From contig CBDCRU010000002.1 in assembly GCA_965221115.1 (NCBI GenBank), positions 452,045-516,044 on the forward strand: a stretch of 64,000 bases of DNA. The letters run 5' to 3'. The notes under the pieces are model-generated. The model ran no database searches. It was not told where the DNA came from and was given only the letters and a program-made list of their open reading frames with translations. The translations under genes were made by a program, and so were the position numbers. The stretch is from Alphaproteobacteria bacterium (GTDB lineage: Bacteria > Pseudomonadota > Alphaproteobacteria > SP197). Positions 13,044-53,127 of this stretch are shown piece by piece (position 1 is the stretch's first letter; each line of letters begins with the position of its first letter).

Positions 13044-13649
13044 ATGACTGAAGCAGAGCTCAACATCATCGACGGAACGCCGCTCGACATGCTGGCAAGC
13101 CGCCGCTCGGTCCTTGCCGCGCGGCTGGATGACCCCGGGCCAGACGAGGAGGAGCTCCAACGCATGCTGGACGTGGCGGTGCGGGTTCCCGATCACGGGC
13201 GCGTCACGCCGTGGCGCCTGCAGGTCCTCTCGCGGCAGGCACAGAAGGAACTGGGAGACGCCTTCGCCGAGGAGTTCACGAGGCAGAACCCCGGTGTCCC
13301 GGAGGATCGCCTGCACCTCGAGTGGATTCGCCCGCAACGCTCTCCGGTTCTCGTCATCGTCTCCAGCCGCATCGTGCCGGACCGCGACGGCGTTCCTCCG
13401 GTCGAGCAGCTGCTGTCGTGCGGCAATGTCTGCTTCAACCTGCTGCATGCGGCTACGGCGTTGGGATACGGCGCCCAGTGGGTCACCAACTGGCCTGCCT
13501 ACAACGAGAACATCAAGGCGACGCTCGGCATTCCCGCAGACGACCACCTGGTCGGTTTCGTCCACATCGGCACCCCGAAAGGCCCTCCCCAGGAGCGCCA
13601 GCGTCCGGTGATCTCGGAGGTGGTCTCCCGCCTCGACAGCCTTCCCTGA
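13044..13649 (+). CDS. nitroreductase family protein
   Basis: 201 aa. RRS...LD and PDHGRVTPWRL core typical of NAD(P)H nitroreductases. Confidence 0.8.
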   Translation: MTEAELNIIDGTPLDMLASRRSVLAARLDDPGPDEEELQRMLDVAVRVPDHGRVTPWRLQVLSRQAQKELGDAFAEEFTRQNPGVPEDRLHLEWIRPQRSPVLVIVSSRIVPDRDGVPPVEQLLSCGNVCFNLLHAATALGYGAQWVTNWPAYNENIKATLGIPADDHLVGFVHIGTPKGPPQERQRPVISEVVSRLDSLP

Positions 13650-13659
13650 AGAGCCTCGC

Positions 13660-24944: not shown

Positions 24945-25145
24945 ATGGCAAGACCTCGAGGAAAACAGAAGACTGAGCGGGTGACCATCAACCTAGATCC
25001 TCGCTCCTATGAGATTTTGCTCAACGTGGCCAAACGCAATCAGGCACCCGTCGCACAAGTCGCACGGAGAGCGGTGGTGGAATTTCTTCGGCGAGAAGAA
25101 CCATCCATGGATCAATGGACGCTACCGCTGGAACCACAGGCATGA
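24945..25145 (+). CDS. ribbon-helix-helix (CopG/Arc-like) DNA-binding protein, candidate controller of the methyltransferase operon
   Basis: 66 aa. TINLDPRSYEILLNVAKRN...VARRAVVEFL is a typical RHH. Its stop overlaps the M1 start (ATGA). Confidence 0.6.
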   Translation: MARPRGKQKTERVTINLDPRSYEILLNVAKRNQAPVAQVARRAVVEFLRREEPSMDQWTLPLEPQA

Positions 25146-27852: not shown

Positions 27853-28024
27853 CAATTTACAGACTGCATTCCAGCGTCGTGTAGCGGCCGACTAGCTTGG
27901 TACCGGCGGCAAGTGACCCGGGAAAAGCCAGCATGCGCCTCGACCGACCAATTCCTTGCGTTGTTGGGCGGCATTGAACACATGTTGCAACGCTTCAAAC
28001 AAGTGCGACGCTTCGTCAACAAAC

Positions 28025-34567: not shown

Positions 34568-34592
34568 GAGGCTGCGGGGGCGTGGCAGCCTC
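34568..34592. terminator. GC-rich hairpin between convergent genes (GAGGCTGC-loop-GCAGCCTC), overlapping the stop of the minus-strand ATPase gene
   Basis: Perfect 8-bp stem seen in the sequence. No U-tract. Confidence 0.25.
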
Positions 34593-38136: not shown

Positions 38137-39401
38137 CAGTCGGCTCCGTCCGCGCGGGTTTCTTGCAAGTGTGCCAGAACGATCTGACACCCCTCCTCGA
38201 TCAGTTGGTCAAGGATTTCGTTGCGCCTCTGCTCGCTGTCGCCAAAGACATCGCGCGCCGCGGGCGGCAGGGCCTTTTCGATCTCGTCGAGCACTTCGAG
38301 GGCCGAACGCCGGAAAGAGTCCGACGGCGCGATCTTGCTGCGAATCGTGTCCGCGACTTCCCCGATGGGTCCTACGGTGGGATCCCCTGGTGCGGTCACC
38401 TCCAGTGCGATTTTCTCGATCCAGGTTTGGCCTATCAGCTCAGCGCGGTGCAACGCTTCTGCTCGCACGAGCTCCGGATCGCGACGCAACCGCCACGCCA
38501 GCTCGGTTTCGCCTCGCATTTCGAGGCGTACCACCAGGTGATCCGACTGAGCCGCAGTCCGTGCGTCTGCCAGCTCCGCGGCGATACGCTCCACCATGGC
38601 GCGCTGGTCGGAAACGCCGCCCAAGTCGATTTGTATGCGTTCGAACTGGGCAACGCTTGTGGTGTGGGAACGGCAATCAATCGCACCGTCGTCTGCAACG
38701 CGAACAAGCGTCACTGATTTTGGTCCGGCCTCGCCGATATCGCGACCTTGCGGCATGCCGGGCATCACAATGTACGGCCTTCGGCTGTACACTTCGCGTG
38801 TATGGAGATGCCCCAGACACCAATAGTCGAAGCCAGTGCCGGCGACATCGGAAACGCTGCAAGGCGCATAGTCGTCGTGGTCGGCGGAACCCGCCAAGCT
38901 TGTATGAAGAAGGCCGATATTGAAGGCGTCTGGAACAGGGCTCCGGAAGCGAGGTATCAGGCTCTCCGGGGCATGGGGCCTTGCGAAGCTGATGCCGTGA
39001 ATGGCTACAGGGATCGTGCCACGGTCGTAGTCAAGCTCGACGGTCTCGGCTCGACCGCCGAAAACCTTCACGCCTTCCGGAAGAGTGAGCTCGCGCGTGA
39101 TCCGTGATTGGGCGTCGTGATTGCCGCGGATGATGAAGGTACGAATGCCGGCCTCGGTCAATCGCTGAAGCTGCGCGGCCAGAAACAGGGCGGTCTTCAT
39201 CGATGTCTGATCGCCATCGTAGAGGTCGCCCGCGATCATCAACGCATCCACTCGTTCGTCGAGGCAAAGATCGATGGTCCGCTCGAAGGCGAGACGGGTC
39301 GCATCGCCGATCAGTTCTGCAAGATCGGGATTTAGCAACGCGAGCGAGCGCAGCGGCGAGTCGAGATGGACATCCGCAGTGTGAACGAAGCTGAAAGACA
39401 T
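38136..39401 (-). CDS. SbcD/Mre11/YhaO-like metallophosphoesterase (DNA repair exonuclease family)
   Basis: Motif I FVHTADVHLD, IAGDLYD, GNHD and the later His motifs. About 421 aa from MSFSFVH. Confidence 0.8.
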   Translation of the reverse strand: MSFSFVHTADVHLDSPLRSLALLNPDLAELIGDATRLAFERTIDLCLDERVDALMIAGDLYDGDQTSMKTALFLAAQLQRLTEAGIRTFIIRGNHDAQSRITRELTLPEGVKVFGGRAETVELDYDRGTIPVAIHGISFARPHAPESLIPRFRSPVPDAFNIGLLHTSLAGSADHDDYAPCSVSDVAGTGFDYWCLGHLHTREVYSRRPYIVMPGMPQGRDIGEAGPKSVTLVRVADDGAIDCRSHTTSVAQFERIQIDLGGVSDQRAMVERIAAELADARTAAQSDHLVVRLEMRGETELAWRLRRDPELVRAEALHRAELIGQTWIEKIALEVTAPGDPTVGPIGEVADTIRSKIAPSDSFRRSALEVLDEIEKALPPAARDVFGDSEQRRNEILDQLIEEGCQIVLAHLQETRADGAD

Positions 39402-39513
39402 GGCGGGCCTAGTGTCAGTTCGTGACCTGCTCTTCACCACACTGGCGTCGTGGCGGGTACCCTTACGAGTTCGCCCGCATCATGGGTCAGCTCAGGCTGT
39501 ATCGGCAATTCAA

Positions 39514-39865: not shown

Positions 39866-40106
39866 AGAGAGTTGTATTCGCGCTGCCGCTCGAGTCAACT
39901 TGCTCGACGACACGGCCAACATCCGCAAGCCGCAAGCTACTAAAGTAGCGGAGATGTCAACGCGCCGTGTAAGGTCGCTGCTCGGGAACTACCGTTGATC
40001 CGCGCTCCGCGGCCCAGAGCGTGCCACCGAACTCCATGCAACAACACTCCTGTACCGCCTGTCGCGGAAGGAATCCATGGCTATTCGCTCTCGATCGCCC
40101 CACGCC

Positions 40107-41230
40107 CTATCCGTCCATGGCCTTCTTGAGGGAGAAGGCGATGTGATCCGATAGGTTCTGCAGGGGATCGTCGGAGAGATGCGCGTAACGGGCGGTAGTC
40201 TGGGCTTGGGTATGACCGAGAATCCGTCCCACCATCGGCAGGCTCTCGCCCGCCGTCACTGCCTCTGAAGCTAAAGAGTCACGTAGATCGTGAATCCGCA
40301 CGTCCTCGAGTCCGGCGGCCTTGCGCACCCGACGCAAGGGTTTCTGCAGATCCTGCAGACAGACGCCTACTCTGGTGCCCTCGATGACATAGGGATTGCC
40401 CTCCACCCGCTCTGCGTTGGCCAGGACCTCGAGGCCCGGACCGCTGAGCGGGATCGTCTTGGCACCCGCCTTAGTGACGGGCAAGTGAATCCGATTGCCC
40501 CGGATGAGTTCCCATTTCAGGGGCTAGATTTCCGACAGCCGCGCACTCGTGTAGAGCAAGAGCCGGTATGCCGTCCTCGCCGCGAGCGCCAAGACCTCCT
40601 CCTCGTCCAGGGTCTTTCCGAGACGCTTTAGCTCTTCCGCCGTCAGGAACCGCTCACGCTTGCCCTCCTTGTACTTGCCGACGTGGTAGCAGGGATTGGA
40701 ACGATCCGGCCGCAGATTTCAAGCCTCCGCCAGGTTCCTCATCTTGGGCGGCACCCCCAGGGTGCGGCTTGCCTGGTAGGGTTTGTCCTTCTATTCCTGA
40801 TGCAACGCCGCCTCCTCCTCGCGCCTCAGCGCCACCACCCTGATCGACCCCAGTGCCCGCAGGATGTAGCGGTTCACTGCATGCCTGTACTCCACCTAGG
40901 TACGCGCCTTGCGGTGGACGGGCACATATTCTTCCAGGAATCGCCCAGCCAGTTACGCCACCGCGGGCGAGAGCTGCTCGGCCTCCTTCCCCTTGTTTTG
41001 GTTCCTGTGTCGTCATCGATGCCGGCGATGATCTTGCGGGCGCGCGTCTTGGCCTCCTCGAAGGACAGGGCACCGTGGCGTCCGATCTGGACACGGATGG
41101 TCTTTCCCCTGCGGGAGGCCTGAGCGACGCATCGCTTGCCGTCATTGGGATAGACACGAGCGCCGAAGCCCTTCAGCGTGTCGTCCCAGACGAAGTACTC
41201 CTTTTCGTGGAAGCGAAGGCTGTCGATTTA
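40107..41230 (-). pseudogene. phage-type tyrosine integrase, degraded (internal stops) and 5'-truncated by an IS insertion
   Basis: The intact C-terminal catalytic segment 40107..40484 (RIHDLRDS...LGHTQAQTTARYAHL) has R/H/R/Y positions. Upstream arm-binding/SAM segments (...SLRFHEKEYFVWDD, GRHGALSFEEAKTRARK) are spread over frames with in-frame TAG/TAA. The N-terminus abuts the IS end at 41231. Confidence 0.7.
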
Positions 41231-43253
41231 GCCGGAACTTCATCGGCGCTCAACTGACCCAACTCGCTGAATTGGTTGTGCAATCTGCGTGAATGGGGCG
41301 TGTTATTTGGCAATGTGTTCCCATAATGATGAGAGGATATGTTGGGGGTGGGGGGTGTTGACACGCGATATGTGGGAATGTAGTGTCTGTTTGATGTTCC
41401 CATAACGGGTGCCCCATGGCCTTCAACATCGAACGCGTCCCCAACCAGGCCGGCAAACCCGCCGTGCTCCTCAGGCAGGCCTGGCGCGAGGGTTCCAGGA
41501 TCCGCAAGAAGACCATCGCCAACCTCTCCATGCTCCCCGAGCATGTCGTCGAGGGCTTCCGCACCGTTCTCAAGGGCGGCGTCGCCGTCGGTGACCTCGG
41601 CGATCTCATGACCGTCGAGCGCTCGCTGGCCCACGGCCATGTCATGGCCGTGCTCGGCACCTGCCGCAGGCTCGGCTTCGAACGCCTGCTGCATCGCCAT
41701 GAAAGCCGCCAGCGGCAGCTGGCGCTGGCCGCCGTCGTCGCCCGGGTGCTGAACCCGGACTCCAAGCTTGCCACCGCCCGGCGGCTGTCGCCGGAGACCG
41801 CCACCAGCAGTCTCGGGGCCCTGCTCTCCCTGGGGCCCGTGACAGGCAACGAGATGCTGGCCATGCTCGACTGGCTGCTCGCACGCCAGCGCTGGATCGA
41901 GCGGGTCCTGGCGCGGCGCCACCTGGAGGATGCGACGCTCATCCTCTACGACGTGTCGAGTTCCTACATGGAGGGCCGGATGTGCCCCCTGGCCGGCTTC
42001 GGTCACAACCGTGACGGCAAGCGGGGCAAGCAGCAGGTGGTGTTCGGCCTGTTGTGCAGTTCGAAGGGGTGTCCCATTGCGGTGGAGGTGTTTGCCGGCA
42101 ACACGGGGGACCCGGCGACCCTGGGCTCCCGGGTGGCGCGGATCCGCCGTCGCTTCTCCATGGCCCGCGTGGCCCTGGTGGGGGACCGCGGCATGATCAC
42201 CACGGCGCGCATCCGCGAGGACCTCGAGCCGGCGGGTCTGGCCTGGGTCTCGGCCCTGAAGGCGTCCGACCTGCGGCGGCTCGCCCGTGGGCCCGAGCCG
42301 GCGCTCTCGCCGGAGGCCCTGGTGGCGGACCAGGTGGCCGAGATCACCAGTCCCGACTTCCCCGGGGAGAGGCTCATGGTGTGCCTCAACCCGCGCCTGC
42401 GCGAGGACCGCCGGCGCAAGCGCGAGGCCCTGCTGGAGGCCACCGAGGAGGTGCTGGAGGGGATCGCCGCATCGGTCCGTGCCGGAACCCTGAAAGGGGC
42501 GGCGAGGATCGGCCACCGGGTGGGCCGCGAGGCCAACCGCCGCAAGGTCGAGAAGCACTTCGACATCACCATCACCGACACCTCCTTCACCTGGCGCCGC
42601 CTTGAGGAGAGGATCGACCGGGAGGCCCGCTTCGACGGGGTCTACGTCGTCCGCACCAGCCTCGAGGACATCGCGCCTGACGCCGCTGTCGAGGCCTACA
42701 AGAGCCTGGCCACCGTGGAGCGCGCCTTCCGCGTCGCCAAGAGCGATCTGAAGATCCGGCCGGTTTGCGTCTACACCGAGGACCACGTCCGCGGGCACGT
42801 GTTCCTGTGCATGCTGGCGTACTACGTGGAATGGCACATGCGCCGGCGCCTGGCGCCGCTGCTCTTCGAGGACGATGACCGCGAGGCGGCGCGGCGCCAG
42901 CGCGCGACGCCGGTGGAGAAGGCTCAGGTCTCGCCGTCGGCCAGACGCAAGGCGCAGGCCAAGGCCACCCCCGACGGTCTGCCGGTGCACAGCTTCCGCA
43001 CCCTCATCGACGATCTGGCCAGCGTCGTCGTCAACGTCATCCGCCTGCCCGGCACCGGCACGGAACGCACGACCATCGTCACGCAGCGGACCAGGCTGCA
43101 GAACCACGCCTTCGAACTCCTGGAAGTCAACCCCGACCGCACTGTTCCCATAAACATGACAGGTTGAAACCGGGTTCATCAGCCCAACAATGACGTCAAA
43201 TCAGGATGTTGGAAGACGCTCGGCCACTTGTGAGCCGATGAAGTTCCGTCTAA
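41231..43253 (+). mobile_element. second IS1634-family-like element (ends approximate)
   Basis: 17-bp terminal inverted repeat GCCGGAACTTCATCGGC (41231..41247) and GCCGATGAAGTTCCGTC (43237..43253). Repeated GTTCCCATAA motifs near both ends. Confidence 0.6.
41416..43167 (+). CDS. IS1634-family transposase (583 aa)
   Basis: Motifs parallel the 28130 transposase: LYDVSSSYMEG, GHNRDGKRGKQQVV...AVEVFAGNTGD, DRGMITTARI. Confidence 0.8.
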   Translation: MAFNIERVPNQAGKPAVLLRQAWREGSRIRKKTIANLSMLPEHVVEGFRTVLKGGVAVGDLGDLMTVERSLAHGHVMAVLGTCRRLGFERLLHRHESRQRQLALAAVVARVLNPDSKLATARRLSPETATSSLGALLSLGPVTGNEMLAMLDWLLARQRWIERVLARRHLEDATLILYDVSSSYMEGRMCPLAGFGHNRDGKRGKQQVVFGLLCSSKGCPIAVEVFAGNTGDPATLGSRVARIRRRFSMARVALVGDRGMITTARIREDLEPAGLAWVSALKASDLRRLARGPEPALSPEALVADQVAEITSPDFPGERLMVCLNPRLREDRRRKREALLEATEEVLEGIAASVRAGTLKGAARIGHRVGREANRRKVEKHFDITITDTSFTWRRLEERIDREARFDGVYVVRTSLEDIAPDAAVEAYKSLATVERAFRVAKSDLKIRPVCVYTEDHVRGHVFLCMLAYYVEWHMRRRLAPLLFEDDDREAARRQRATPVEKAQVSPSARRKAQAKATPDGLPVHSFRTLIDDLASVVVNVIRLPGTGTERTTIVTQRTRLQNHAFELLEVNPDRTVPINMTG

Positions 43254-43480
43254 CGAGCGCAACAGCAACCGATCAAAGTGGAAGCATGAAGGTCCTCCCG
43301 GGAAGCGTGGTTCAGGGCATGGTGCTGCCACTGACAAGGGGGTAAAAAGGGTTAGGAAACGAGGCCGATAGGACAGGCGGGCATTCGCAGGAAGAAAAAA
43401 TCGATGCCGCCCGCTCGGAAGGACATGAAGACCTGCAAGACGGCAGGCGCTGTTCACACTCCAGTAGGGGGCTACCCACA

Positions 43481-43561
43481 ATGCAGATTGACCGCGTCGT
43501 TATTCGTAACTTTCGCTCATTCGCTCATCTTGACGTAGACATTGCTCCAGGTAGCACCTGC
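43481..43561 (+). pseudogene. gajA: gajA 5' fragment (first 27 codons MQIDRVVIRNFRSFAHLDVDIAPGSTC), separated from the rest of the gene by an IS21-family insertion
   Basis: Classic OLD/ABC N-terminus (IxNFRSF). Has an SD (AGGGGG) upstream. The frame ends inside the IS inverted repeat. Splicing to 47613 gives ...GSTC-VIGENNSGKTN. Confidence 0.7.
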
Positions 43562-43978
43562 TGTTGGTGGTGGTGAGGAAGCGCGTGATATCGGCTTCGA
43601 GCCGCGCTTTGGTGTGATGCACTGTCGGTCCGCATCGTTTTCTTCCCCATTGTGAACATTCTATTGGGCCGGTCTGGCGGCCTTGCAGGCCTGGTGTGCC
43701 GGGCGACCTGCGAGGCGTGCTGTCCCGGGGCGGTTGCGGTGTGCTCTCGCCGCCGGCACGCCCGGGATGTGACGGGCGCTCGTGGATGGCGTCCGGGGTC
43801 TGGCCGGTGTGCCGGAGATGGGGGAGGATCGGCGCCCTGGGAAGAGTGATGCGGCACCGGCATCCTGTGGAATGGACATGACCGGCGCCGCACCCGACGA
43901 GCTGGTCATGGGGACCGCGCTCTGCCTTGAGTATCAGGCGGTTGGGGAGTCGGGTCCACCCCATTCTTCAGGCGCCGG

Positions 43979-44419
43979 ATGTGTCGTGAGGGTCGGGTCT
44001 TCAGGTGCGGCCTGTGCCGCCGCCAGGTGGTTCTGTGCGAGGCCTGCGATCGCGGCCATCTGTATTGCTCGAAGACCTGCAGCATGGAGGCGCGCCGGGC
44101 GCGCCGCCGTGCCTCCAACCGGCGCCATGCGAAGAGCCCGAAGGGACGCCGGGGCAACCGGGAGCGTCAGCGCCGGTTCCGCCTGCGCCGTTGGGAGAGG
44201 GCGCGTGCGAAGGCTCGTGTCTCCACCGCCCGTCACCGTGTCGCGCAAAAAACCGTAACGGACCATGGCTTGGCCGGGGCGAAGGCGCCGGTTCATGGTG
44301 GCCGGCACGTGCTCGAGGACCCCGAACGGGGGTCCCGTTGCGCGGCATGTGGCCGGTTGTGCCCGTTCCTTGTGACGACGAGCCAGTGGCCACGGCCGAC
44401 ACGCCGGACGAGAGAGTGA
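43979..44419 (+). CDS. Cys-rich zinc-ribbon-like ORF upstream of istA inside the IS (may be spurious)
   Basis: 146 aa with CGLC, CEAC and CSKTC, then an Arg-rich tail. High-GC context makes chance ORFs likely. Confidence 0.25.
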   Translation: MCREGRVFRCGLCRRQVVLCEACDRGHLYCSKTCSMEARRARRRASNRRHAKSPKGRRGNRERQRRFRLRRWERARAKARVSTARHRVAQKTVTDHGLAGAKAPVHGGRHVLEDPERGSRCAACGRLCPFLVTTSQWPRPTRRTRE

Positions 44420-44422
44420 GAG

Positions 44423-45895
44423 ATGGCCATTGACGATCACACGCGGGCCGAGGTCGTGCGTCTTCACAGGGCCGAGGGGTGGTCCGTGGGGGCCATCGCC
44501 CGCCATCTCGGCATCCATCACAGCACGGTCAGGCGGGCCCTCGAGGCCGCCAGGGTGACGCCGCGGCGGCGGCCGCGGCAGATCGATCCGTGGATCCCGT
44601 TCATCGAGGAGGAACTGCGCAAGAACCCCGACATCCTGGCCTCCAACCTCTACCGCATGGTGCACAACCGGGGCTACACCGGAGGCAGCGACCACTTCCG
44701 CCACATCGTCGGCGCCATGAGGCCGCGGCGGGCGTCCCGGGCGGCGATGCAGCTCACCTTCTATCCGGGGGAACAGGGCCAGGTCGACTGGGGGGACTTC
44801 GGTCCTGTCACGATCGGCCGCGCCGAGCGCCGGCTGATGGGCTTCGTGCTGACGCTCAGCTACTCCCGGCGCATCGTCCTGCGCTTCTCTTACGGCACCA
44901 CGATGAGCCACTTCCTGGCCGGTCACATCGCCGCCTTCGAGACCCTGAACGGCGTTCCCAGGAGCCTGCTCTACGACAACCTCCGAAGCGTCGTGACGGC
45001 CCGCCGCGGCCGCGCCATCACCTACAATCCCACGTTCATCGACTTCTTCCGACACTATGCCTTCGAGGCCCCGGCCGCATGGCCCCGCAATCCCCGTCAC
45101 AAGGGACGCGTGGAGCGGAGTATCGGATACGTCCGCACGGCCTTCATGCCCCACGTGCGTGCCGATGAGCCGCTCGACGCGCTCAACGAGGCGGCGCGGG
45201 CATGGTGCGACGGACCGGCCCTCGAGCGGCCCTGGCCCGGGGATCGCACGCGCACGGTCCGGGAGGCCTTCGAGAAGGAGCGGCGCTTCCTCACGCCCCT
45301 GCCCGACACGCCCTTCCCGGCCGAGGAGATGCGCCCCGCCCGGGTCGGCGCCACACCGTTCGTTCTCTTCGACAAGAACAGCTACAGCGTGCCGCCCGGG
45401 ACTGTCCACTCGACCGTCACCGTCGCCGCCAGCCCCGACACCGTGCGCATCCTCGACGGCGCCACGGTGATCGGCGTCCATCAACGCTGCTACGGCAGGC
45501 AGGAGGTCATCGAGGATCCCGACCACATCGCCGCCCTCACCAGGAGGTCGCAGGCGGCGCGGCGGCGCCACGCGAGAGACCGCCTGCTGCGCGCCGTGCC
45601 CGCTCTCGAGGACCTGTTCGCCGCCAGCTCCGGCCATGTCGGGCTCAGCGCCCGGGCCTTCATCCGGCTGCTCGACATCCATGGCGCCGCGGCGCTCGCC
45701 GGCGCCGTCGACGAGGCCCTCAAGCGCTCATCCCCCCACGTCCACACCGTCCGCCACATCCTCGAGGAACGCCATCACGACCACGGCCGGCCGCCCTGGC
45801 CCGTCGACATCACCGATCCCCGGGCACGGAGCGCCACGGTGCGTCCATCCGGCCTCGACGCCTACGACACGACACGCAAGGGAGACGACACGTGA
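44423..45895 (+). CDS. istA: IS21-family transposase IstA
   Basis: N-terminal HTH, DDE core (QVDWGDF, YDN, KGRVER). 490 aa. Confidence 0.9.
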   Translation: MAIDDHTRAEVVRLHRAEGWSVGAIARHLGIHHSTVRRALEAARVTPRRRPRQIDPWIPFIEEELRKNPDILASNLYRMVHNRGYTGGSDHFRHIVGAMRPRRASRAAMQLTFYPGEQGQVDWGDFGPVTIGRAERRLMGFVLTLSYSRRIVLRFSYGTTMSHFLAGHIAAFETLNGVPRSLLYDNLRSVVTARRGRAITYNPTFIDFFRHYAFEAPAAWPRNPRHKGRVERSIGYVRTAFMPHVRADEPLDALNEAARAWCDGPALERPWPGDRTRTVREAFEKERRFLTPLPDTPFPAEEMRPARVGATPFVLFDKNSYSVPPGTVHSTVTVAASPDTVRILDGATVIGVHQRCYGRQEVIEDPDHIAALTRRSQAARRRHARDRLLRAVPALEDLFAASSGHVGLSARAFIRLLDIHGAAALAGAVDEALKRSSPHVHTVRHILEERHHDHGRPPWPVDITDPRARSATVRPSGLDAYDTTRKGDDT

Positions 45896-46596
45896 CCACA
45901 CTCAAGGAACGCGCCCGGGCGCTCAGGCTCCATGGCCTCGTCTCCCGCTGGGACGAGATCGCCGAGGCCGACTGGCTCTGTGACCTCATCGACCGGGAAG
46001 AAAAGGAGCGCTCCGCGCGCAGCCTCGAACGGCGCCGCGCCGCCGCCCACATCCCCGCCTTCACGCCCCTGGCCGACTTCAACTGGTCATGGCCGCGGGC
46101 CATCGACGCCGAGGCCGTCAACAGGCTGATGGCCCTCGACTTCATCGATGAGCGCACCAACGCAGTGCTGATCGGCGGACAGGGAACCGGCAAGACCATG
46201 ATCGCCGCCAACATCGCCCACCAGGCCCTCGTCCACGGCCATACCGTGCGCTTCGCCAACGCTCCCGGCCTGCTCGCCCGGCTCGCCAGCCTCGACAGCC
46301 GGCAACTCCTGCTGCATCACCTCACCCTCATCGCCAGGCCCCGCCTGCTCGTCCTCGACGAAATCGGATATCTCACGCTCGACCGCCACCAGGGAGACCT
46401 CCTCTACGCCATCATCACCCGGCGCTACCAGCGACGCTCCACCCTGCTCACCACCTCCCTGGGCTTCGCCCAGTGGGACCACATCTTCCCCTCCACCAGC
46501 TCGATCGCCGGAACCGTCGACCGCCTCGTCCACAACGCCACCATCGTCACCATCGACGGCGACTCCTTCCGCCTGGGACGCAAGGGTGGCCGATGA
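45892..46596 (+). CDS. istB: IS21-family helper ATPase IstB
   Basis: GTG start overlaps the istA stop. Walker A GGQGTGKT, Walker B LLVLDEIGY. Confidence 0.88.
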   Translation: MTTLKERARALRLHGLVSRWDEIAEADWLCDLIDREEKERSARSLERRRAAAHIPAFTPLADFNWSWPRAIDAEAVNRLMALDFIDERTNAVLIGGQGTGKTMIAANIAHQALVHGHTVRFANAPGLLARLASLDSRQLLLHHLTLIARPRLLVLDEIGYLTLDRHQGDLLYAIITRRYQRRSTLLTTSLGFAQWDHIFPSTSSIAGTVDRLVHNATIVTIDGDSFRLGRKGGR

Positions 46597-47446
46597 CGCC
46601 TTCAGGAGGGACCTCGAGGCCGTCAAGCGCATGCCGCTGGAGACCATCGCCGCGCGATGGGGATACGTCCGCGACACACACGCCTCGACGCCCATGAACC
46701 CCGTGCTGCGGGGACCCGGCCTCCCCAAGCTCGTCCTCAAGCGCCAGGACAACGGACACTGGACCTACTTCAATACCCAGGACGCCGACGACAACGGCAC
46801 CGCTGTCGACTTCATGAAGAACCGAGGCCTCTCCTTCGCCGCCATCCGCGCCACCAGACGCGCAACCTTCCTCGACACATGGCGCCGCGCCCGGGAACAC
46901 CCCGCTCCCCCATGGCTCATCCGGCGCGGCATCCGGCGCTCCACACTCGACACCTGGAAACCCCTCATCCGATGCGATGACAGGGGCCACGTCCTGTTCG
47001 CACACCGCAACGCAAGGCGCATCATCACCGGCTTCGAAATCGCCCCGCCCGACGGACCCCGGCGCTTCGCCACAGGGGGACGCCGCGCCCTCTTCGCCCT
47101 CGCCAGTCGCACCCCTGACGCCATCGCCGCCCTCGTCATCACCGAAGGCGCCGTCAACGCGCTCAGCCTCGCCCAGATCGACGGATGCCCCACCGAGCAC
47201 GCCTTCCTCTCCACCGCAGGCGCTCCCGCCGCGGCGCAGTGCGCCCAGATCAGCCACGCCGCCCGCATCCTGCCCGCACTCACCACCATCATCCTCGCCC
47301 AGGACGGCGATACAGCCGGCGACCGGCAGGCCGACACGCTCCGCTCCAGGATCGACATCCCGGCCCACGTCCGCATGACACGGCGCAGGCCGCCCGACAA
47401 CACCGACTGGAACGACATCCTGCGCAACCGGGATCAGGACGACTGA
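46586..47446 (+). CDS. DUF3991/Toprim-like protein (primase-like passenger gene)
   Basis: Start overlaps the istB stop. C-terminal Toprim-like ITEGAVNALS ... ILAQDGDTAGD. 286 aa. Confidence 0.45.
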   Translation: MADDAFRRDLEAVKRMPLETIAARWGYVRDTHASTPMNPVLRGPGLPKLVLKRQDNGHWTYFNTQDADDNGTAVDFMKNRGLSFAAIRATRRATFLDTWRRAREHPAPPWLIRRGIRRSTLDTWKPLIRCDDRGHVLFAHRNARRIITGFEIAPPDGPRRFATGGRRALFALASRTPDAIAALVITEGAVNALSLAQIDGCPTEHAFLSTAGAPAAAQCAQISHAARILPALTTIILAQDGDTAGDRQADTLRSRIDIPAHVRMTRRRPPDNTDWNDILRNRDQDD

Positions 47447-47612
47447 GCGAAAACGCTCGATCGCCAGCGTCGCCATCGCTCCGTCACGGGCAGCGACCAC
47501 GCCAGCCAACCCGATAGGGCAATCACAATGGGGAAAAAGCCAATCAAGGCCTCATCAAAAGCGCGGCTCGAAGCCGATATCACGCGCTTCTACAAAACCG
47601 CCAACAACCTGC

Positions 47613-49349
47613 GTCATAGGAGAGAACAATTCCGGGAAAACTAACGTCCTGCATGCTATCCGCCTGTGCATTGATACAGGACTTTCGTCTACGTACCGAT
47701 CCCTTTCCCCAAATGATATTCATTCCGCCGTCGATATCGCGCATCCTGAGCAAGTACTCATCGGCCTGGAGATAGCGGACTTTGCCGGAAGAACGAACGA
47801 AGAGGCACTAGTCGGCGCGTGGCAGCACAAGCCTGGTCTTGCGCGGCTAATTTATCGCTACAGGCCGAAACTCAGTGTGCGTGAGGATCTTGAGGTCGGG
47901 GAAATCGAGGCGGGCAAACTTACGCACGAAGACTATCACTGGGAGATTACCGGGGGCGGCGATCCTGCACACGATCTTGCCGACATACCGTGGAATCAGG
48001 ATGTCGGCTCGTCCATCCGGTTTTCAGATCTTCAGTCATTTCTGGTGGTCTTTCTGCCGGCCCTTCGTGATGTTGAGGGGGACCTGCGGCAGTTCCGCAG
48101 TTCTCCGCTGGCGCGTCTGATCGACGCGATGGAGATTGGACCCAACGCGCAGGAAGAGCTGCTTGACGCGCTGCGTAAGGCGAATGAGGAAATCGCAACA
48201 GCTGAAACCATTGACGAAATCGCCAAAGCGATCGACGCATCATTTGAGAGGGTGACAGGACCGGCGTTCAACATGAATGTTGCACTCGGCCTTGCGGAGC
48301 CGTCCTTTCAGTCGATCATCCGCGCCTTGCGCATCTTGCTCACCAACGCCGCGATGCAGGATTTCGATCCGTCCTCAAACGGAATGGGGCTCAATAACAT
48401 TCTCTATGTCTCTATTCTCATTGAGTACTTCCACAAGCGCGTTGCGCGGCAGAAGTCAGCCGGACAGATCATCCTTTTCGAAGAGCCTGAAGCGCACTTG
48501 CATCCGCAACTACAACTCACATTGTTCAAGGCCCTTAGTGCCTTGCCGTTCCAGTCAATACTAACCACTCACAGCACACATATCACGGCCAATGCGCCGC
48601 TCGGCTCATATGTAGTTCTGTCGCAGACGGGCCGCCCGGCAATAGCTTCATGCATGCCCGCTGAAGATGCGAGACTGGAACAGGCAGAAATCGACGATCT
48701 TGAGCGCTACCTAGACGCCACACGATCCAATTTGCTGTTCGCCCGCAAAGTGATGCTTGTCGAAGGGCCTGCAGAACTGTTCCTAATTCCCGCCCTGCTC
48801 AAGCATGTGATGGATTTCGACTTTGACCGAGACGGTATATCGCTCATACCGATCTACGGTGTACATTTCCACGTCTACGCCAAGCTCTTTTCTGGACAGG
48901 CACTACCGAAGAAGTGCGCCATCATCACGGACGGCGACTTAAGGCCCAGCGATGCTGACCCCGAACTGGAAGGGGAAGACGACTTCCCGCCACCGCCTGA
49001 TCTTGAGGCCTTGCAAAATGAGTTCGTACGCGTGTTTGCCTGCAAGACAACCTTCGAACGGGCTCTCGTGTTCGAAGGGACGCTCGAAATGTTTGCATTG
49101 ACCGCCGAGGATATTGGCGCCCCCATCGTCGCCAGACGGCTGAGGGATGGCACCGAACAACTGGACAACGACGATCTTGGCGATGACGAGAAGAGCAAGA
49201 TACTGAGACCGCTCCGCAAAATGGTCCTAAACACCGCCAAGCGGTACGGAAAGGCCCGCTTCGCTCAGGTCACCGCTCGCCATGCCGATAAGGCCGAGGT
49301 CGTCCCCAGATATCTAGTCGATGCTGCAGAATGGTTGCGCTCACCATGA
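47613..49349 (+). pseudogene. gajA: gajA remainder (OLD-family ABC ATPase + Toprim nuclease), lacking its own start because of the IS21 insertion
   Basis: The P-loop VIGENNSGKTN at 47613.. is in frame with ORF 47877..49349 but has no in-frame start back to the stop at 47445. Downstream: Walker B ILFEEPEAHLHP, H-loop TTHSTH, Toprim KVMLVEGPAE and AIITDGD. Confidence 0.8.
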
Positions 49350-51118
49350 GGTTGACCGACGAACAAAGGGAAGCGGTGCGCTGTGCAGACGATCTCATGC
49401 TGACTGCTTGTCCCGGTAGCGGAAAAACTCGGGTTATCATCTCCAAACTGTCGCGCACAATCGAAGAGGTAAGAGGCACGCCCCGTGCTGTGGCCTGCAT
49501 CACCTATACAAACGCCGCGATGCACGAAATAGAAGCTCGGCTGCGCCATCATATCCAGCCGGGCGACGACGCCTACTACGATGTCTGCACCATCCATTCG
49601 TTTTGCCTGAACAATGTATTCCGGCCGTATTGTCACCTAATCAAGGGCTACAAAGGCGGCTTTAGAGTACTGACACCGGACAGCGCCGATTTTGAGCGGC
49701 TGGTTACGGCAACTTGTGAGCGGCATAACCGATTTAATCTCACGTTCAGGGACTTTGAGGACTTTACTCAACTGCGTATGAGTGTGAAGGGGGAGCCAGT
49801 TGGTCACGCCCTTGATCGCGGCGCCCTGACGGCGGAGATGGCGCAGGAGTTCTGGAATCGTATCCGGGAGGAGGGGTTCGTTGATTTTGCCAATATAATC
49901 TTTTACGCATATCTTCTTCTGAAGACGCGCCCGGAAATCCTCAGCTACATCTCGGCAAAGTTCGCTTGGATTCTCGTTGACGAGTTCCAAGATACAACCA
50001 GCCTACAGGTGGAAATCCTCTCGCTGATTGCCGATGCAGGTCGGACGCACTTTCTCCTCGTCGGCGATCCATGTCAGTCGATCTTCCGGTTTGCCGGAGC
50101 GCGGCCCGATCTTGCCGACGAGTTTGCCGAACGCATAGGAGCGCGCACGGATTTGCAGCTCTCCGGAAATTTCCGGTCAAGTCCGCCGGTGATTGCCCAC
50201 GCCAACAACCTGTATCCTCGCACACCCCCGATGAAAGCCGTCGGACGCGCGAAGAAGTACACCAACAAACCGGTTTGGCTAAGCGGTGAAACAGCTTTTG
50301 AGGTCATCGCGGACTATTTTCTGCCAGCCCTTGAGGGGCTGGACATTCCGGTCGGTGACGCCGCCATTCTCGCGCCGACCTGGTATTCACTGTTTCCCCT
50401 TGGGCGTCGGCTTCGGGAGTACGGTGTGAGCATCGTCGGTCCCGGTGCGCGACCTTACCGCCGTAATCGTCTTTTTGCGCCTCTTGCTGAGCAGGTGTGT
50501 GCCTACATGATGGAACCCGATCCGGAGGCCATCATCGGGATCGAGCGCACCCTGTTTAACACTGTGTTGAATGCGACGGGGCGAACTTGTTTCGATCTCT
50601 TCTCGTACCGCGGGCGCATCATCGTCTTTCGTCTCCTCGACAGCGCCCGGCATCTTCATGATGCTCACATGGGTGGCATCGCTTGGCTCGAGGCCGGCGC
50701 CCGCGCGTTCACTGAAGTTCTGATCGATGAGGAGTATCTAAGTCCAGCGGAAAGCGATCTCTTCGCGATGTCTGCCGAAGAAATGAAGGCGGACATGCGC
50801 AACAACAAAGTGGATTTAGCTAACATGACAATGTCCGATCTCGGTATCTACGCGAGTCCCGAGGCGGCACTCAAGCTTTCAACGCTCCACAACGCGAAGG
50901 GCCGGGAGTACCGCGCTGTCGCCATGATCGACCTCCATGAAGGGCGAATTCCCTTTTACCAGGCCATGACCGACGAGGAAGTTGCGGAAGCTAAACGGCT
51001 CTTTTACGTCGGCGTAACCAGATCCGAGCAATTCCTGCTCTACGTCACCGATAGAAGCCACTACCGTAATACGCCGACCCGCTTTCTTCGGGTCGCGAGT
51101 GGCGTAGGCATGTGTTAG
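49346..51118 (+). CDS. gajB: Gabija GajB, UvrD-like SF1 helicase
   Basis: ATG overlaps the gajA stop (ATGA). Motif I ACPGSGKT, motif II VDEFQD, Q-motif LTDEQREAV. 590 aa. Confidence 0.8.
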   Translation: MRLTDEQREAVRCADDLMLTACPGSGKTRVIISKLSRTIEEVRGTPRAVACITYTNAAMHEIEARLRHHIQPGDDAYYDVCTIHSFCLNNVFRPYCHLIKGYKGGFRVLTPDSADFERLVTATCERHNRFNLTFRDFEDFTQLRMSVKGEPVGHALDRGALTAEMAQEFWNRIREEGFVDFANIIFYAYLLLKTRPEILSYISAKFAWILVDEFQDTTSLQVEILSLIADAGRTHFLLVGDPCQSIFRFAGARPDLADEFAERIGARTDLQLSGNFRSSPPVIAHANNLYPRTPPMKAVGRAKKYTNKPVWLSGETAFEVIADYFLPALEGLDIPVGDAAILAPTWYSLFPLGRRLREYGVSIVGPGARPYRRNRLFAPLAEQVCAYMMEPDPEAIIGIERTLFNTVLNATGRTCFDLFSYRGRIIVFRLLDSARHLHDAHMGGIAWLEAGARAFTEVLIDEEYLSPAESDLFAMSAEEMKADMRNNKVDLANMTMSDLGIYASPEAALKLSTLHNAKGREYRAVAMIDLHEGRIPFYQAMTDEEVAEAKRLFYVGVTRSEQFLLYVTDRSHYRNTPTRFLRVASGVGMC

Positions 51119-51185
51119 GCGTGAAGGCTGTTCCCGTGGAAATCATCAGAGCCGAGATCACGGCAAAACTCACAGTGGAGCCTGC

Positions 51186-51791
51186 ATGGTGCTCGTAGCA
51201 GAACTCCCAATATCGGAGGTGATTTTCCGGATCGAAACGCTGAACAGTCAGCTCGCTAAATTCTGGTCGCAAAGCGACGGTTGGGCACCGGTCGCGGCAG
51301 CCGCATTGCTGAGCAAGTCGCGCCTTGACTGGCAGGTGTCATTGTCCGGCTCACTAGGCATCTGGATACGCGACCCGGCTGAAGCGCTAACGCCCGCCGA
51401 ACTTATTCTCGCATGGGTCAATCTCGGAAGTTTGATCGAGGGCACGATCAAGCTGTTCCTGTCCGTGTACTACGACACATTCAAGGCGGACATCGAGAAT
51501 CTCAAGAAAGTTGATTCCTACAAAAAGAAGAAGCAGGAGGCGCTGTCGCCCGACGGTCTTACCCTGGAACCGCTGCGGCAGTATTGCAAGCTCCGCAGGG
51601 TCCTGGATAACGAGGACTTGGCACTTGTCGAACTCGTACAGCAACGCCGCAATGCTATCCATGCTTTCAAAGATCGGCCTATAGGCGAAAAGGCCGAGTT
51701 TGAGGAAGCGGTGCGGAGCTATCTACAAATGTTGCGGAACGTCATTACCCGGCTGCCTTATCCAAGTGACGAATACGTGCCAAGTGAATAA
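51186..51791 (+). CDS. hypothetical helical protein with an Rx4H (HEPN-like) motif
   Basis: 201 aa. QQRRNAIHAF matches the HEPN R-x4-6-H signature. Immediately downstream of gajB. Confidence 0.35.
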   Translation: MVLVAELPISEVIFRIETLNSQLAKFWSQSDGWAPVAAAALLSKSRLDWQVSLSGSLGIWIRDPAEALTPAELILAWVNLGSLIEGTIKLFLSVYYDTFKADIENLKKVDSYKKKKQEALSPDGLTLEPLRQYCKLRRVLDNEDLALVELVQQRRNAIHAFKDRPIGEKAEFEEAVRSYLQMLRNVITRLPYPSDEYVPSE

Positions 51792-52236
51792 CCTGACCGA
51801 CAGCAGATCACTTGCTTATGGTGCAGTCGCGCATGCGTCTGAATTCCTCCTGCGGGATGGGTTGGTTCAAGCCCAAGTCTCGAGTAATGATCTTCACGGT
51901 CTCAAATCTGTCTGATTTTGGGGCAGTTCGCAGGTAAGCATCCGCCGAGGTCGGCTTCGGGACCGCACGGTCTACGCACACGGGGTGAACATGGACGTGT
52001 TGAATGACAGCGTTTTCTTATCTGTTCGAACAAAAACGAGGAAACAGGGTCAATTCGGCTCGATCACGGGGCAGCCACTTCACACCAGCCTCATGGCATA
52101 CATTCTTGCTCTTGAAGTCGGTCCCCTGGTTCAAGAGGATGCGGCAGCTCATTGACCCTGACTCCTGGACAAACGTCGGTGGCAATGTTGCAGAGATGCT
52201 GAAGGTGGCGGGGATGGATTGCCTGTCCTACCTTAG

Positions 52237-52408
52237 TCATGTCAGCCAAGCCACGGAATGTCTTTCGCGTCGTGCGCGAAAGTCGTCCGAGGTTTCGAGA
52301 TTGCCATCAGAGATGAAAGGCACCGGACTGCGCAGGTGGACGAACTCCAGATTGCCAGCTACACGCAAGGTGAGATAGAGCTGGAAACGCGCATCCCTTG
52401 ACAACCGA
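52237..52408 (-). pseudogene. fragment homologous to the signature/Walker-B region of the SbcC/YhaN-like ATPase gene (about 80% nucleotide identity to 34744..34912)
   Basis: By-eye alignment. It translates as ...SRDARFQLYLTLRVAGNLEFV...PFISDGNLETSDDFRAR, against KGARFQLYLALRVAGYLEFV...PFIADDILETSDDFRAR in the full gene. Flanks are unrelated. Confidence 0.6.
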
Positions 52409-52419
52409 CGGCGTGTCTT

Positions 52420-52776
52420 CTGGGAACGAAGGAGCCGAACGAGCGGAGAATCAGCGACAAGGTGAAGGAAATCTACGACGTACGGTCGGACATCGTTCAC
52501 AACCGACTGCACAGGTGGGCGCCTGAAAAGGCTCGCTCAGCATACGTCGAAGGCCTCGACCTCACACGGGAGGCCCTGTCCAAGCTGCCGCGGGAGGGAC
52601 CGCCGTGGGTCTGGACGGTGGCACTTGAGGCCGCGCAGGTTTGCAGCAGATCACTTCTCAGTCGGGCGATCAGGACGTGGCAGTCGGATTACACGGTGCT
52701 CCTGCCCCAACACGAAATTCGCACGCGGTTTGAACACCTGGCGAAACCCGGGCCACGGCGTGGGACGCGAGGGTGA
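52420..52776 (+). pseudogene. HEPN-like C-terminal fragment (IYDVRSDIVHNRLH)
   Basis: The open frame begins without a start right after the ATPase fragment. RSDIVH is an Rx4H motif of the RiboL-PSP/Abi HEPN type. Confidence 0.3.
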
Positions 52777-53127
52777 GCGGGCACATGCTCGGACACTTGA
52801 TTGAGGCCGGTTTTCTGCTAATGAGCAATGTCGGCGTTGTTGCGCCTGACCCTTCATGGTATCGAGCGTGAGGGGCTTTGTAGAACGGAGAAACGGAGAA
52901 ACACCCTTTGACTCCTCTTTTTGACAAGGATTGCAATCACGTCGCATGGATGAGCAATGATGGTCGGAACCTGTTCGACACTGCGATGAACTGGGTTGCC
53001 TATATCTCGAGCGGACACGCTTGGTCCGCCTCTTCGGGCAATTGGATGGGAGGCGTGGTGGGCTACAACTGCCTCGACCAATCGGGACGTCCGGTTCTAT
53101 GGAACCCGCGAAATCCCGTGCGCGGGA

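What the first reader, a model, noticed from the sequence alone, without database searches (positions are those of the whole stretch)
43481..49349. Gabija gajA split 27 codons in by a 4.05-kb IS21-family element with a 6-bp target-site duplication
A ribosome-binding site plus ORF at 43481 encodes MQIDRVVIRNFRSFAHLDVDIAPGSTC and then runs into foreign sequence. About 4 kb downstream, the GajA P-loop VIGENNSGKTN lies in frame with ORF 47877..49349 but has no start codon. The hexamer ACCTGC occurs at 43556..43561 and again at 47607..47612. The sequence between them is bounded by about 50-bp imperfect inverted repeats beginning TGTTGG. It contains istA and istB. Removing 43562..47612 gives a seamless OLD-family N-terminus ...DIAPGSTCVIGENNSGKTNVLHAIRL. 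The product would be an ATPase plus Toprim (EGxxE, DGD) protein of about 605 aa, followed by an intact UvrD-like gajB with an ATGA overlap. This is an insertion-inactivated Gabija system. The ATG at 47528 that appears to start the ORF is in another frame and lies inside the IS inverted repeat.
Basis: seen in the sequence. Interest (0 to 1): 0.8.

Follow-up and report, generated by a model that had tools for sequence, protein, structure and literature searches.

The report
Gabija defence gene split by transposon
A mobile DNA element has jumped into the first gene of a two-gene anti-phage system (Gabija) in an uncultured alphaproteobacterium and almost certainly switched it off. That is an ordinary event, but the element is an unusual four-gene relative of IS21 that carries its own primase-like gene.

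Summary
gajA starts at 43481 and runs 27 codons. A 4,045-bp element (43562-47606) interrupts it. The element has 49-nt terminal inverted repeats (TGTTGG...CCAACA, 90% complementary) and a perfect 6-bp target duplication, ACCTGC.

Removing 43562-47612 gives a stop-free 605-aa protein. It matches a PADLOC GajA model end to end (943 bits) and aligns without a gap across the junction to intact 605-aa homologues of up to 90% identity. A homologous intact locus (L001, 89% nucleotide identity) carries a single ACCTGC at that exact spot, so it shows the empty site. gajB (590 aa, ATGA overlap) is intact.

IS insertion into a defence gene is a known, ordinary kind of event.

Inside its repeats are four tightly packed genes: a Cys-rich 146-aa ORF, istA, istB, and a 286-aa T7 gp4/DnaG-like primase-core (Toprim) protein. 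The istA-istB-Toprim order recurs in all 76 related genome loci found, and the Cys-rich ORF was found in every lineage checked. These elements are multi-copy (at least 30 per genome), 4.1-5.3 kb long, and make 5-7-bp duplications. I found no description of this architecture in the searchable literature.

The parts
43481..43561 (+). gajA 5' fragment: 27 codons. It then reads CWWW-stop into the IS, so at most a 31-aa peptide is made.
   Evidence: aligns to residues 1-27 of intact GajA homologues
43556..43561 (.). Left copy of the 6-bp target-site duplication, ACCTGC
   Evidence: present once in intact locus L001
43562..47606 (+). IS21-family element, 4,045 bp, four co-directional genes, GC about 0.64-0.72 against 0.52-0.57 for gajAB
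   Evidence: an independent full-length copy, 92.5% identical end to end, lies at another site with its own 5-bp duplication (L002)
43562..43610 (+). Left terminal inverted repeat (TGTTGG...)
   Evidence: I1: 49 nt, 90%
43640..43668 (+). Left subterminal repeat (second conserved block of the bipartite end)
   Evidence: (I2)
43979..44419 (+). orf146: Cys-rich, Arg-rich protein with 9 invariant Cys. It has no Pfam, NCBIfam or PDB match. It ends 3 nt before istA.
44423..45895 (+). istA, IS21-family DDE transposase, 490 aa
45892..46596 (+). istB, AAA+ helper ATPase, 234 aa, with a GTGA overlap with istA
46586..47446 (+). Toprim/DUF3991 protein, 286 aa, similar to the T7 gp4/DnaG primase RNA-polymerase domain. 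It overlaps istB by 11 nt.
47510..47538 (+). Right subterminal repeat; it contains the out-of-frame ATG at 47528
47558..47606 (+). Right terminal inverted repeat (...CCAACA)
47607..47612 (.). Right copy of the target-site duplication, ACCTGC
47613..49349 (+). gajA 3' fragment, codons 28-605. It holds the P-loop GENNSGKT, EGPAE and DGD. There is no canonical in-frame start before GTG 47877.
49346..51118 (+). gajB, an intact UvrD-like SF1 helicase of 590 aa, with an ATGA overlap with the gajA stop
   Evidence: same 590-aa gene and 4-bp overlap in L001
41228..43253 (+). Second, unrelated IS (DDE_Tnp_1 transposase at 41416-43167) 228 bp upstream of gajA. It has 32-nt inverted repeats and no visible target duplication.

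Best explanation
A type-II OLD-family/UvrD defence operon, Gabija gajA-gajB, lies in a chromosomal defence island of an uncultured alphaproteobacterium. An IS21-family transposable element has knocked it out.

**Shown**
- The element inserted between codons 27 and 28 of gajA.
- It made a 6-bp staggered-cut duplication (ACCTGC).
- This separates the promoter, ribosome-binding site, start codon and first 27 codons from the rest of the gene, which begins just before the Walker A loop.
- Only a 31-aa peptide can be made from the 5' part.
- The 3' part has no canonical start before codon 116.
- gajB and the remainder of gajA carry no other lesion.

**Inferred**
- No full-length GajA is made, so the GajA4:GajB4 complex cannot form and the defence is lost.
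- The insertion is evolutionarily recent, or at least not yet followed by decay.
- Insertion followed the usual IS21 route. An IstA tetramer synapses the bipartite ends, and IstB on the target DNA recruits it.

**The element itself**
- It belongs to a lineage that always carries two extra genes inside the inverted repeats: a Cys-rich ORF upstream of istA and a primase-core-like Toprim protein downstream of istB.
- This lineage has expanded to dozens of copies in closely related genomes.
For: **Anatomy**
- Searches give the coordinates, repeats, duplication and the stop-free rejoined ORF.

**Family assignments**
- Pfam and NCBIfam identify IstA and IstB.
- PADLOC identifies GajA (943 bits, one stretch, residues 1-603) and GajB (941 bits).

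**Intact relatives and the empty site**
- 1,564 GajA relatives scored E <= 1e-50. Nearly all of the best 120 listed are 603-607 aa.
- The alignment has no gap at the junction, and T26 and C27 are invariant.
- In L001, an intact gajA is followed by a 590-aa gajB with a 4-bp overlap.
- Window 43280-43561 and 47607-51303 map to L001 9801-10081 and 10076-13772. They share 6 bp, and L001 reads AGCACCTGCGTCATC, with a single ACCTGC.

**Element boundaries**
- An independent copy of the same IS, end to end at 92.5% identity, lies in another locus with its own GAGAT duplication.
- Family members in other genomes are 98.5-100% identical between copies, start TGT, and make 5-7-bp duplications.

**Published support**
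- A GajA truncated to its Toprim part has no nuclease activity (PMC8136825, read).
- GajA forms the tetrameric core of the complex through its ATPase domain (PMC10781630).
Against: - No expression or phenotype data exist.
- Read-through from the IS operon, which runs in the same direction, could still transcribe gajA' and gajB.
- A 490-aa N-terminally truncated GajA from GTG 47877 cannot be excluded by sequence alone.
- The assembly is probably a metagenome-assembled genome, so the insertion may be present in only part of the population.
- The published K35A Walker-A mutant of B. cereus GajA kept nuclease activity in vitro. Loss of the P-loop alone is therefore not proof of inactivity. The argument rests on loss of the start codon and of 115 residues of the ATPase fold.
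Confidence: 0.93

Rival explanations
1. The locus keeps partial function. Transcription reading out of the IS, or a hybrid promoter at its right end, drives a truncated GajA (from GTG 47877, 490 aa) together with GajB, and these still act in defence or as a toxic or regulatory remnant.
For: The four IS genes point the same way as gajA, and no convincing terminator lies between 47446 and 47613. IS21 right ends are reported to carry an outward -35 box (PMC10122671). The 3' gajA fragment and gajB have no further lesions.
Against: The truncated product would lack residues 1-115, including the Walker A loop and the first strands of the ABC fold. A Toprim-only GajA is inactive (PMC8136825). No sigma-70-like promoter was found at the right junction. 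Intactness is equally explained by a recent insertion.
Confidence: 0.05
2. The insertion is an assembly artefact: a repeat-induced chimera in a metagenome-assembled genome, not a real allele.
For: The related genomes are MAGs and this IS family is multi-copy in them. Repeats are classic sites of misjoins.
Against: A misjoin would not create a perfect 6-bp duplication flanking complete inverted repeats, with both gajA halves in the same orientation and frame on either side.
Confidence: 0.02
3. The interrupted gene pair is not Gabija but another OLD-family ATPase-nuclease plus helicase pairing, such as a class 1 OLD, a PARIS-like system or a retron-associated OLD.
For: OLD-family proteins share the ATPase plus Toprim plan. 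PADLOC also reports weaker hits to AriA and Old.
Against: The best 23 PADLOC hits are all GajA models. The top one is full length at 943 bits, against about 112 bits for AriA and Old. The neighbour is a full-length GajB (941 bits) with the 4-bp overlap seen in intact loci.
Confidence: 0.01

Closest known systems
Gabija system (GajA/GajB of Bacillus cereus VD045; PMC8136825, PMC10781630)
   Same: It has an N-terminal ABC-type ATPase-like domain with a dimerisation insert and a C-terminal OLD-type Toprim nuclease with conserved Glu and DxD. A UvrD-like SF1 helicase gene follows and overlaps the stop. It matches GajA and GajB profiles over their full length.
   Different: Here gajA is physically split by a 4-kb transposable element, so the system is predicted to be non-functional. 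The proteins belong to an alphaproteobacterial/environmental clade of 605-aa GajA and 590-aa GajB, not to the Bacillus proteins.
IS21 / IS5376 (IS21 family: istA plus istB between bipartite terminal inverted repeats; PMC10122671, PMC11208146)
   Same: It has an IstA DDE transposase and an IstB AAA+ helper with overlapping stop and start. Its ends begin TG. Each end has two conserved blocks over about 110 nt. It makes a short target duplication (6 bp here, 5-7 bp in the lineage).
   Different: It is 4,045 bp with four genes. The family is described as two ORFs (PMC10122671). The usual size of roughly 2-2.6 kb is from my memory of ISfinder summaries and was not checked. The two extra genes are conserved across the lineage.
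IS transposition into cas genes inactivating CRISPR-Cas (PMC10359306)
   Same: It is the same kind of event: an insertion sequence lands in a gene of an immune system and disables it.
   Different: The immune system (Gabija) and the IS family are different. Here there is only genomic evidence and no selection experiment.
T7 gp4 primase domain / DnaG RNA-polymerase domain, and the DUF3991-Toprim proteins of conjugative elements
   Same: A profile of the IS-borne protein matches T7 gp4 residues 58-218 (E = 1.6e-7), with the Toprim Glu and DxD aligned. Foldseek's best PDB matches are 1nui and 5guj. Relatives at 33-36% identity sit next to T4SS and topoisomerase genes.
   Different: It has no zinc-binding domain and no helicase or helicase-binding domain in the same polypeptide. 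It is located inside an insertion sequence. Primase activity is untested, and the structural model is only of moderate confidence (pLDDT 71.6, pTM 0.48).

Membership tests
Gabija (GajA) | ABC/AAA_15-type ATPase-like N-terminal domain plus OLD-type Toprim C-terminal domain in one protein of about 580-610 aa | tested here: met
   Tested on the rejoined ORF: AAA_15 1.5e-31, AAA_21, and OLD-like_TOPRIM 1.4e-17 at residues 402-469
Gabija (GajA) | Full-length match to a curated GajA profile, better than to other OLD-family defence proteins | tested here: met
   PDLC00092 at 942.7 bits, residues 1-603 against model positions 1-602 of 604. AriA and Old score about 112 bits
Gabija (GajA) | Conserved Walker A Lys, Toprim Glu and DxD | tested here: met
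   K36, E411, D467 and D469 are invariant in an 11-sequence alignment
Gabija (system) | Adjacent co-directional UvrD-like SF1 helicase GajB | tested here: met
   UvrD-helicase 1.4e-45 plus UvrD_C; PDLC00130 at 940.7 bits, full length; ATGA overlap
Gabija (system) | Uninterrupted, translatable gajA | tested here: not met
   A 4,045-bp insertion follows codon 27, and there is no in-frame start before codon 116. It is a disrupted member.
Gabija (system) | Protection against phage | not testable with these tools
   Needs cloning and phage challenge
IS21 family | IstA: HTH plus DDE (rve) plus Mu-transposase-C-type barrel | tested here: met
   NCBIfam transpos_IS21 at 230 bits (cut-off 160); Pfam Mu-transpos_C_2 8e-23, HTH_23, and a weak rve hit
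IS21 family | IstB AAA+ helper encoded immediately downstream of istA | tested here: met
   Pfam IstB_IS21 at 174 bits (cut-off 24). NCBIfam IS21_help_AAA scores 191 bits, just under its cut-off of 200. There is a GTGA overlap.
IS21 family | Terminal inverted repeats starting TG, with more than one conserved block per end, and a short target duplication | tested here: met
   A 49-nt inverted repeat plus a second block about 80-115 nt in; 6-bp duplication here and 5-7 bp in relatives
IS21 family | Only two ORFs (istA, istB), as the family is described | tested here: not met
   Four conserved ORFs lie inside the inverted repeats. 'Two open reading frames' is quoted from PMC10122671. It is a derived member, not a typical one.
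IS21 family | Demonstrated mobility | tested here: met
   The evidence is indirect but strong. Near-identical copies lie at many sites in single genomes, each with its own duplication. An empty site exists for the window copy.
DnaG/T7 gp4-type primase core (for the 286-aa IS protein) | Toprim fold with catalytic Glu and DxD, preceded by the N-terminal subdomain of the RNA-polymerase domain | tested here: inconclusive
   The profile hits 1nui at E = 1.6e-7 over residues 58-218 with Glu and DxD aligned, and E187, D240 and D242 are invariant. Foldseek TM is only about 0.3 and the model is poor in residues 141-182.
DnaG/T7 gp4-type primase core (for the 286-aa IS protein) | Zinc-binding domain and primer synthesis activity | not testable with these tools
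   There is no zinc-binding domain in this polypeptide. The separate Cys-rich orf146 is a candidate partner, but only by inference.

The most novel reading that the evidence does not exclude
The inserted element represents an undescribed, actively proliferating lineage of IS21-family transposons. Its transposition module has four conserved genes: a zinc-ribbon-like Cys-rich protein, IstA, IstB, and a T7 gp4/DnaG-like primase core recruited from conjugative-element DUF3991-Toprim proteins. In this reading the element-encoded primase, perhaps with the Cys-rich protein as a separate zinc-binding module, primes DNA synthesis at the transposition intermediate. That would make it a bacterial insertion sequence that brings its own priming enzyme, alongside a DnaC-like loader homologue (IstB).
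Probability: 0.3. Interest if true: 0.6.

Novelty: new variant of a known kind. Interest (0 to 1): 0.38.

Why it matters
The Gabija disruption matters mainly for annotation. Gene callers report a 490-aa orphan 'ATP-dependent endonuclease' (P0020), and defence-system finders would score the genome wrongly. It is also one more natural example of insertion sequences eroding immune islands: this island carries at least three IS elements.

The more interesting point is the element. The istA-istB-Toprim order is present in all 76 related genome loci found, and the Cys-rich ORF was found in every lineage checked. The copies reach dozens per genome. Two accessory genes, one primase-like, have therefore become part of an IS21-type transposition unit.

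If these genes act in transposition, they would bear on how IS21/Mu/Tn7-like DDE plus AAA+ systems handle the DNA-synthesis step. If they are cargo, they are an unusually stable cargo for an IS.

Tried and rejected
**Searches that found nothing**
- Exact-protein look-ups of GajB (590 and 595 aa) and of the truncated GajA (P0020), meant to find the source contig, found nothing. The source record is therefore unnamed.
- A megablast of the IS against PLSDB plasmids gave no match.
- No second copy of the IS or of its proteins lies in the window.
- The sigma-70 promoter and terminator scan across both junctions showed nothing above shuffle expectation that would explain gajB expression.
- Rfam found no RNA family in 40000-53000.
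- The metagenome scan for near-identical uninterrupted alleles of the same strain found only relatives of 82% identity or less. Population polymorphism could not be shown.
- A search among those metagenome loci for other gajA genes split by an IS found none. It found only in-frame stops and truncations.
- orf146 has no Pfam, NCBIfam, PADLOC or PDB match.
- Literature searches for IS21 with Toprim, DUF3991, primase or passenger genes returned nothing relevant.

**Ideas dropped**
- I considered that this IS family prefers defence genes. A copy in L006 abuts a gene that Pfam labels DruA, but PADLOC does not recognise that gene or its neighbour.
- I considered target-sequence specificity. The duplications seen (ACCTGC, GAGAT, GCCAAGA, TGGCTC, GTCGT, GATGT, AGTCG, ACGATCC, GTGAT, CCAGG) share no motif.


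Full report
**1. Observation**

- ATG at 43481 follows TAGGGGG by 9 nt. It opens 27 codons (MQIDRVVIRNFRSFAHLDVDIAPGSTC) ending at 43561.
- From 43562 the sequence reads TGTTGG..., and in the gajA frame it gives CWWW-stop.
- ACCTGC occupies 43556-43561 and 47607-47612.
- Between them lie 4,045 bp whose ends are 49-nt inverted repeats, 90% complementary (43562-43610 and 47558-47606). A second conserved block lies further in (43640-43668 and 47510-47538).
- The terminal repeat has no other match in the window and none in 100 shuffles.
- Downstream of 47612 the frame continues VIGENNSGKTNVLHAIRL.
- Joining 43481-43561 to 47613-49349 gives 605 codons without a stop.
- The gajA frame has no ATG, GTG or TTG between the preceding stop inside the IS and GTG 47877.
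- The ATG at 47528 is in another frame and terminates after 38 codons.

**2. What the interrupted genes are**

- The rejoined protein has AAA_15/AAA_21 ATPase and OLD-like Toprim domains.
- It matches PADLOC GajA model PDLC00092 in a single stretch, residues 1-603 against model positions 1-602 of 604, at 943 bits. Other OLD-family defence proteins score about 112 bits.
- The following ORF (49346-51118, 590 aa, ATGA overlap) is a UvrD-like helicase. It matches GajB model PDLC00130 over its full length at 941 bits.
- A database search returned 1,564 relatives at E <= 1e-50. Nearly all of the best 120 listed are 603-607 aa, and the closest are 90% identical over 100% of the query. The only 100%-identical entry is the 490-aa truncated ORF that gene callers see (P0020).
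- An 11-sequence alignment is gapless across the junction. T26, C27, I29, G30, E31, N32 and N33 are invariant there, as are the Walker A Lys (K36), the Toprim Glu (E411) and the DxD (D467, D469).

**3. Empty site**

- One 90%-identical homologue lies in a 185-kb metagenomic contig (L001). There an intact 605-aa gajA is followed by a 590-aa gajB with the same 4-bp overlap.
- Window 43280-43561 aligns to L001 9801-10081, and window 47607-51303 aligns to L001 10076-13772. The two alignments share exactly 6 bp of L001.
- L001 reads AGCACCTGCGTCATC there, with a single ACCTGC.
- Together with the perfect duplication and complete inverted repeats, this is the signature of a real transposition, not of an assembly error.

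**4. The inserted element**

- It encodes IstA (44423-45895, 490 aa). NCBIfam IS21 transposase scores 230 bits against a cut-off of 160, and Pfam gives Mu-transpos_C_2 and HTH.
- It encodes IstB (45892-46596, 234 aa; Pfam IstB_IS21, 174 bits). The two genes have a GTGA overlap.
- Two further ORFs lie inside the repeats.
  - The first is a 146-aa Cys- and Arg-rich ORF (43979-44419) that ends 3 nt before istA.
  - The second is a 286-aa Toprim/DUF3991 protein (46586-47446) that overlaps istB by 11 nt.
- A full-length copy of the same element, 92.5% identical from first to last base, lies at an unrelated site in contig L002, flanked by its own GAGAT duplication.
- Homologues of the Toprim protein are few, 61 clusters in total. 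Several sit on contigs of about 4 kb, as expected for a repeat that breaks assemblies.
- Scanning one genome per species with an alignment of these proteins gave 76 loci.
  - All show istA-istB-Toprim in that order.
  - The Cys-rich ORF is present in every lineage examined, once ORFs were inspected directly.
  - Nearly all are Alphaproteobacteria or Paracoccaceae MAGs. One genome has at least 30 copies and another at least 17.
  - Within a genome the copies are 98.5-100% identical over 4.1-5.3 kb. They begin TGT and carry individual 5-7-bp duplications.
- The four-gene unit is therefore what transposes.
- The published description of the family is two ORFs between bipartite terminal repeats (PMC10122671). 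This lineage is a derived variant.

**5. The two extra genes**

- In the Toprim protein, Glu187 and Asp240/Asp242 are invariant across 26 homologues down to 35% identity.
- A profile of the family matches the T7 gp4 primase fragment (1nui, residues 58-218) at E = 1.6e-7, with the catalytic Glu and DxD aligned.
- An AlphaFold model is of moderate quality (pLDDT 71.6, pTM 0.48). Its best Foldseek PDB hits are 1nui and B. subtilis DnaG (probability 0.89-0.96, TM about 0.3).
- The protein is thus a primase-core-like Toprim protein without a zinc-binding or helicase domain. Activity is untested.
- Its more distant relatives (33-36% identity) sit beside type IV secretion and topoisomerase genes, that is, in conjugative elements. 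This suggests where the gene came from.
- The Cys-rich ORF has nine invariant cysteines (C-x7-C-x2-C-x6-C-x2-C-x6-C-x3-C ... C-x2-C) and a basic middle. It has no match in Pfam, NCBIfam, PADLOC or PDB.
- That it might supply the missing zinc-binding module of a primase is my inference only.

**6. Context**

- The window is chromosomal: a suf operon, gamma-glutamyltranspeptidase and ABC transporters.
That genome carries at least 30 copies of a related IS. Named relatives are Rhodospirillaceae/Rhodospirillales.
- Between about 20 and 54 kb lies a defence-type island containing:
  - two DNA methylase genes;
  - a DDE_Tnp_1 IS (transposase gene at 28130-29929);
  - the candidate system PDC-S46 (32278-34446, 868 bits);
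  - an AAA_27 plus Metallophos pair (34591-39440);
  - a second DDE_Tnp_1 IS (41228-43253, 32-nt inverted repeats, no duplication);
  - the split Gabija.
- GC is 0.52-0.57 in gajAB, about 0.64-0.72 in the IS and 0.60-0.65 in the flanks.
- Relative to L001 the AAA_27/Metallophos block has moved from downstream of gajB to upstream of gajA. A 77%-identical remnant of its 3' end is left at 52137-52403. The IS without a duplication sits at the new joint, which suggests IS-mediated rearrangement.

**7. Mechanism and consequence**

Shown:
- The insertion geometry is established.
- The start codon and N-terminus are lost to the main reading frame.
- The rest of the operon is intact.

Inferred from established knowledge:
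- IstA synapses the ends and IstB delivers the target (PMC10122671, PMC11208146).
- GajA needs its ATPase-like domain for nuclease activity and for the tetramer that binds GajB (PMC8136825, PMC10781630). The system is therefore off.
- The absence of any further lesion in 3.5 kb of gajA' and gajB suggests a recent event.

Whether the loss was selected (relief of autoimmunity, or uptake of foreign DNA) or is collateral damage of an IS expansion cannot be told from the sequence.

**8. Comparison and novelty**

- IS insertion that disables an immune system is documented for CRISPR-Cas (PMC10359306). Decayed gajA homologues also occur in metagenomes. The Gabija part is correct but ordinary.
- The four-gene IS21 derivative with a primase-like gene is the unusual part. 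I found no description of it in the searchable literature, but I could not query ISfinder.

**9. Verdict**

- Interest is modest for the Gabija knockout and moderate for the element.

Noticed in passing
window 43979-44419 and 46586-47446; loci L002-L082: The IS in gajA belongs to a multi-copy alphaproteobacterial IS21 lineage that always carries two extra genes inside its inverted repeats. One is a Cys-rich 146-aa ORF. The other is a T7 gp4/DnaG-like Toprim protein. Elements are 4.1-5.3 kb and make 5-7-bp duplications.
   Followed up: yes
window 41228-43253: A second, unrelated IS (583-aa DDE_Tnp_1 transposase, 32-nt inverted repeats at 84%) sits 228 bp upstream of the gajA start. It has no recognisable target duplication, and it lies at the joint of a rearrangement relative to the intact locus L001.
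   Followed up: partly
window 34591-39440 and 52137-52403; L001 14139-18920: An AAA_27 (1,199 aa) plus Metallophos (434 aa) gene pair lies downstream of gajB in L001 but upstream of gajA in the window. A 267-bp remnant of the AAA_27 3' end, 77% identical, remains downstream of gajB. This points to mosaic reshuffling of the island.
   Followed up: partly
window 32278-34446: A 722-aa protein with low GC3 (0.46) matches the PADLOC candidate defence family PDC-S46 over its full length (868 bits).
   Followed up: no
window 25115-29929: Two adjacent DNA methyltransferase genes (N6_N4_Mtase) are followed by a third IS-type transposase (DDE_Tnp_1, 599 aa). The island therefore carries at least three IS elements.
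   Followed up: no
window 1-403 and 1434-1834: A direct repeat of about 400 bp at 86% identity lies near the start of the window. Its nature is unknown.
   Followed up: no
L006 3916-8531 and about 13150-14864 (OZ241893.1): Two copies of a related IS in inverted orientation flank pyruvate-ferredoxin-oxidoreductase-type genes (POR, TPP_enzyme_C), an arrangement like a composite transposon. The gene next to the left copy is labelled DruA by Pfam, but no PADLOC model recognises it.
   Followed up: partly
L033-L062 (OZ219747.1): The variant of the IS in the genome closest to the window's host is 5.3 kb. About 850 bp downstream of the Toprim gene it carries an extra stretch with 41% similarity to residues 110-179 of the Toprim protein, possibly a fifth gene or a duplicated fragment. 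Several copies are nested or truncated by one another.
   Followed up: no
L108, L122, L133, L134, L142, L145 (JGI metagenome contigs): Some gajA homologues in metagenomes carry in-frame stops or end abruptly inside contigs. Decay of this gene is not rare, though none of these was seen to be split by an IS.
   Followed up: partly
L151-L153: Relatives of the IS-borne Toprim protein at 33-36% identity (DUF3991 plus Toprim_2, about 326 aa) are conserved next to topoisomerase III, TrbI/CagX and a TraF-like peptidase. These are conjugative-element backbones.
   Followed up: partly
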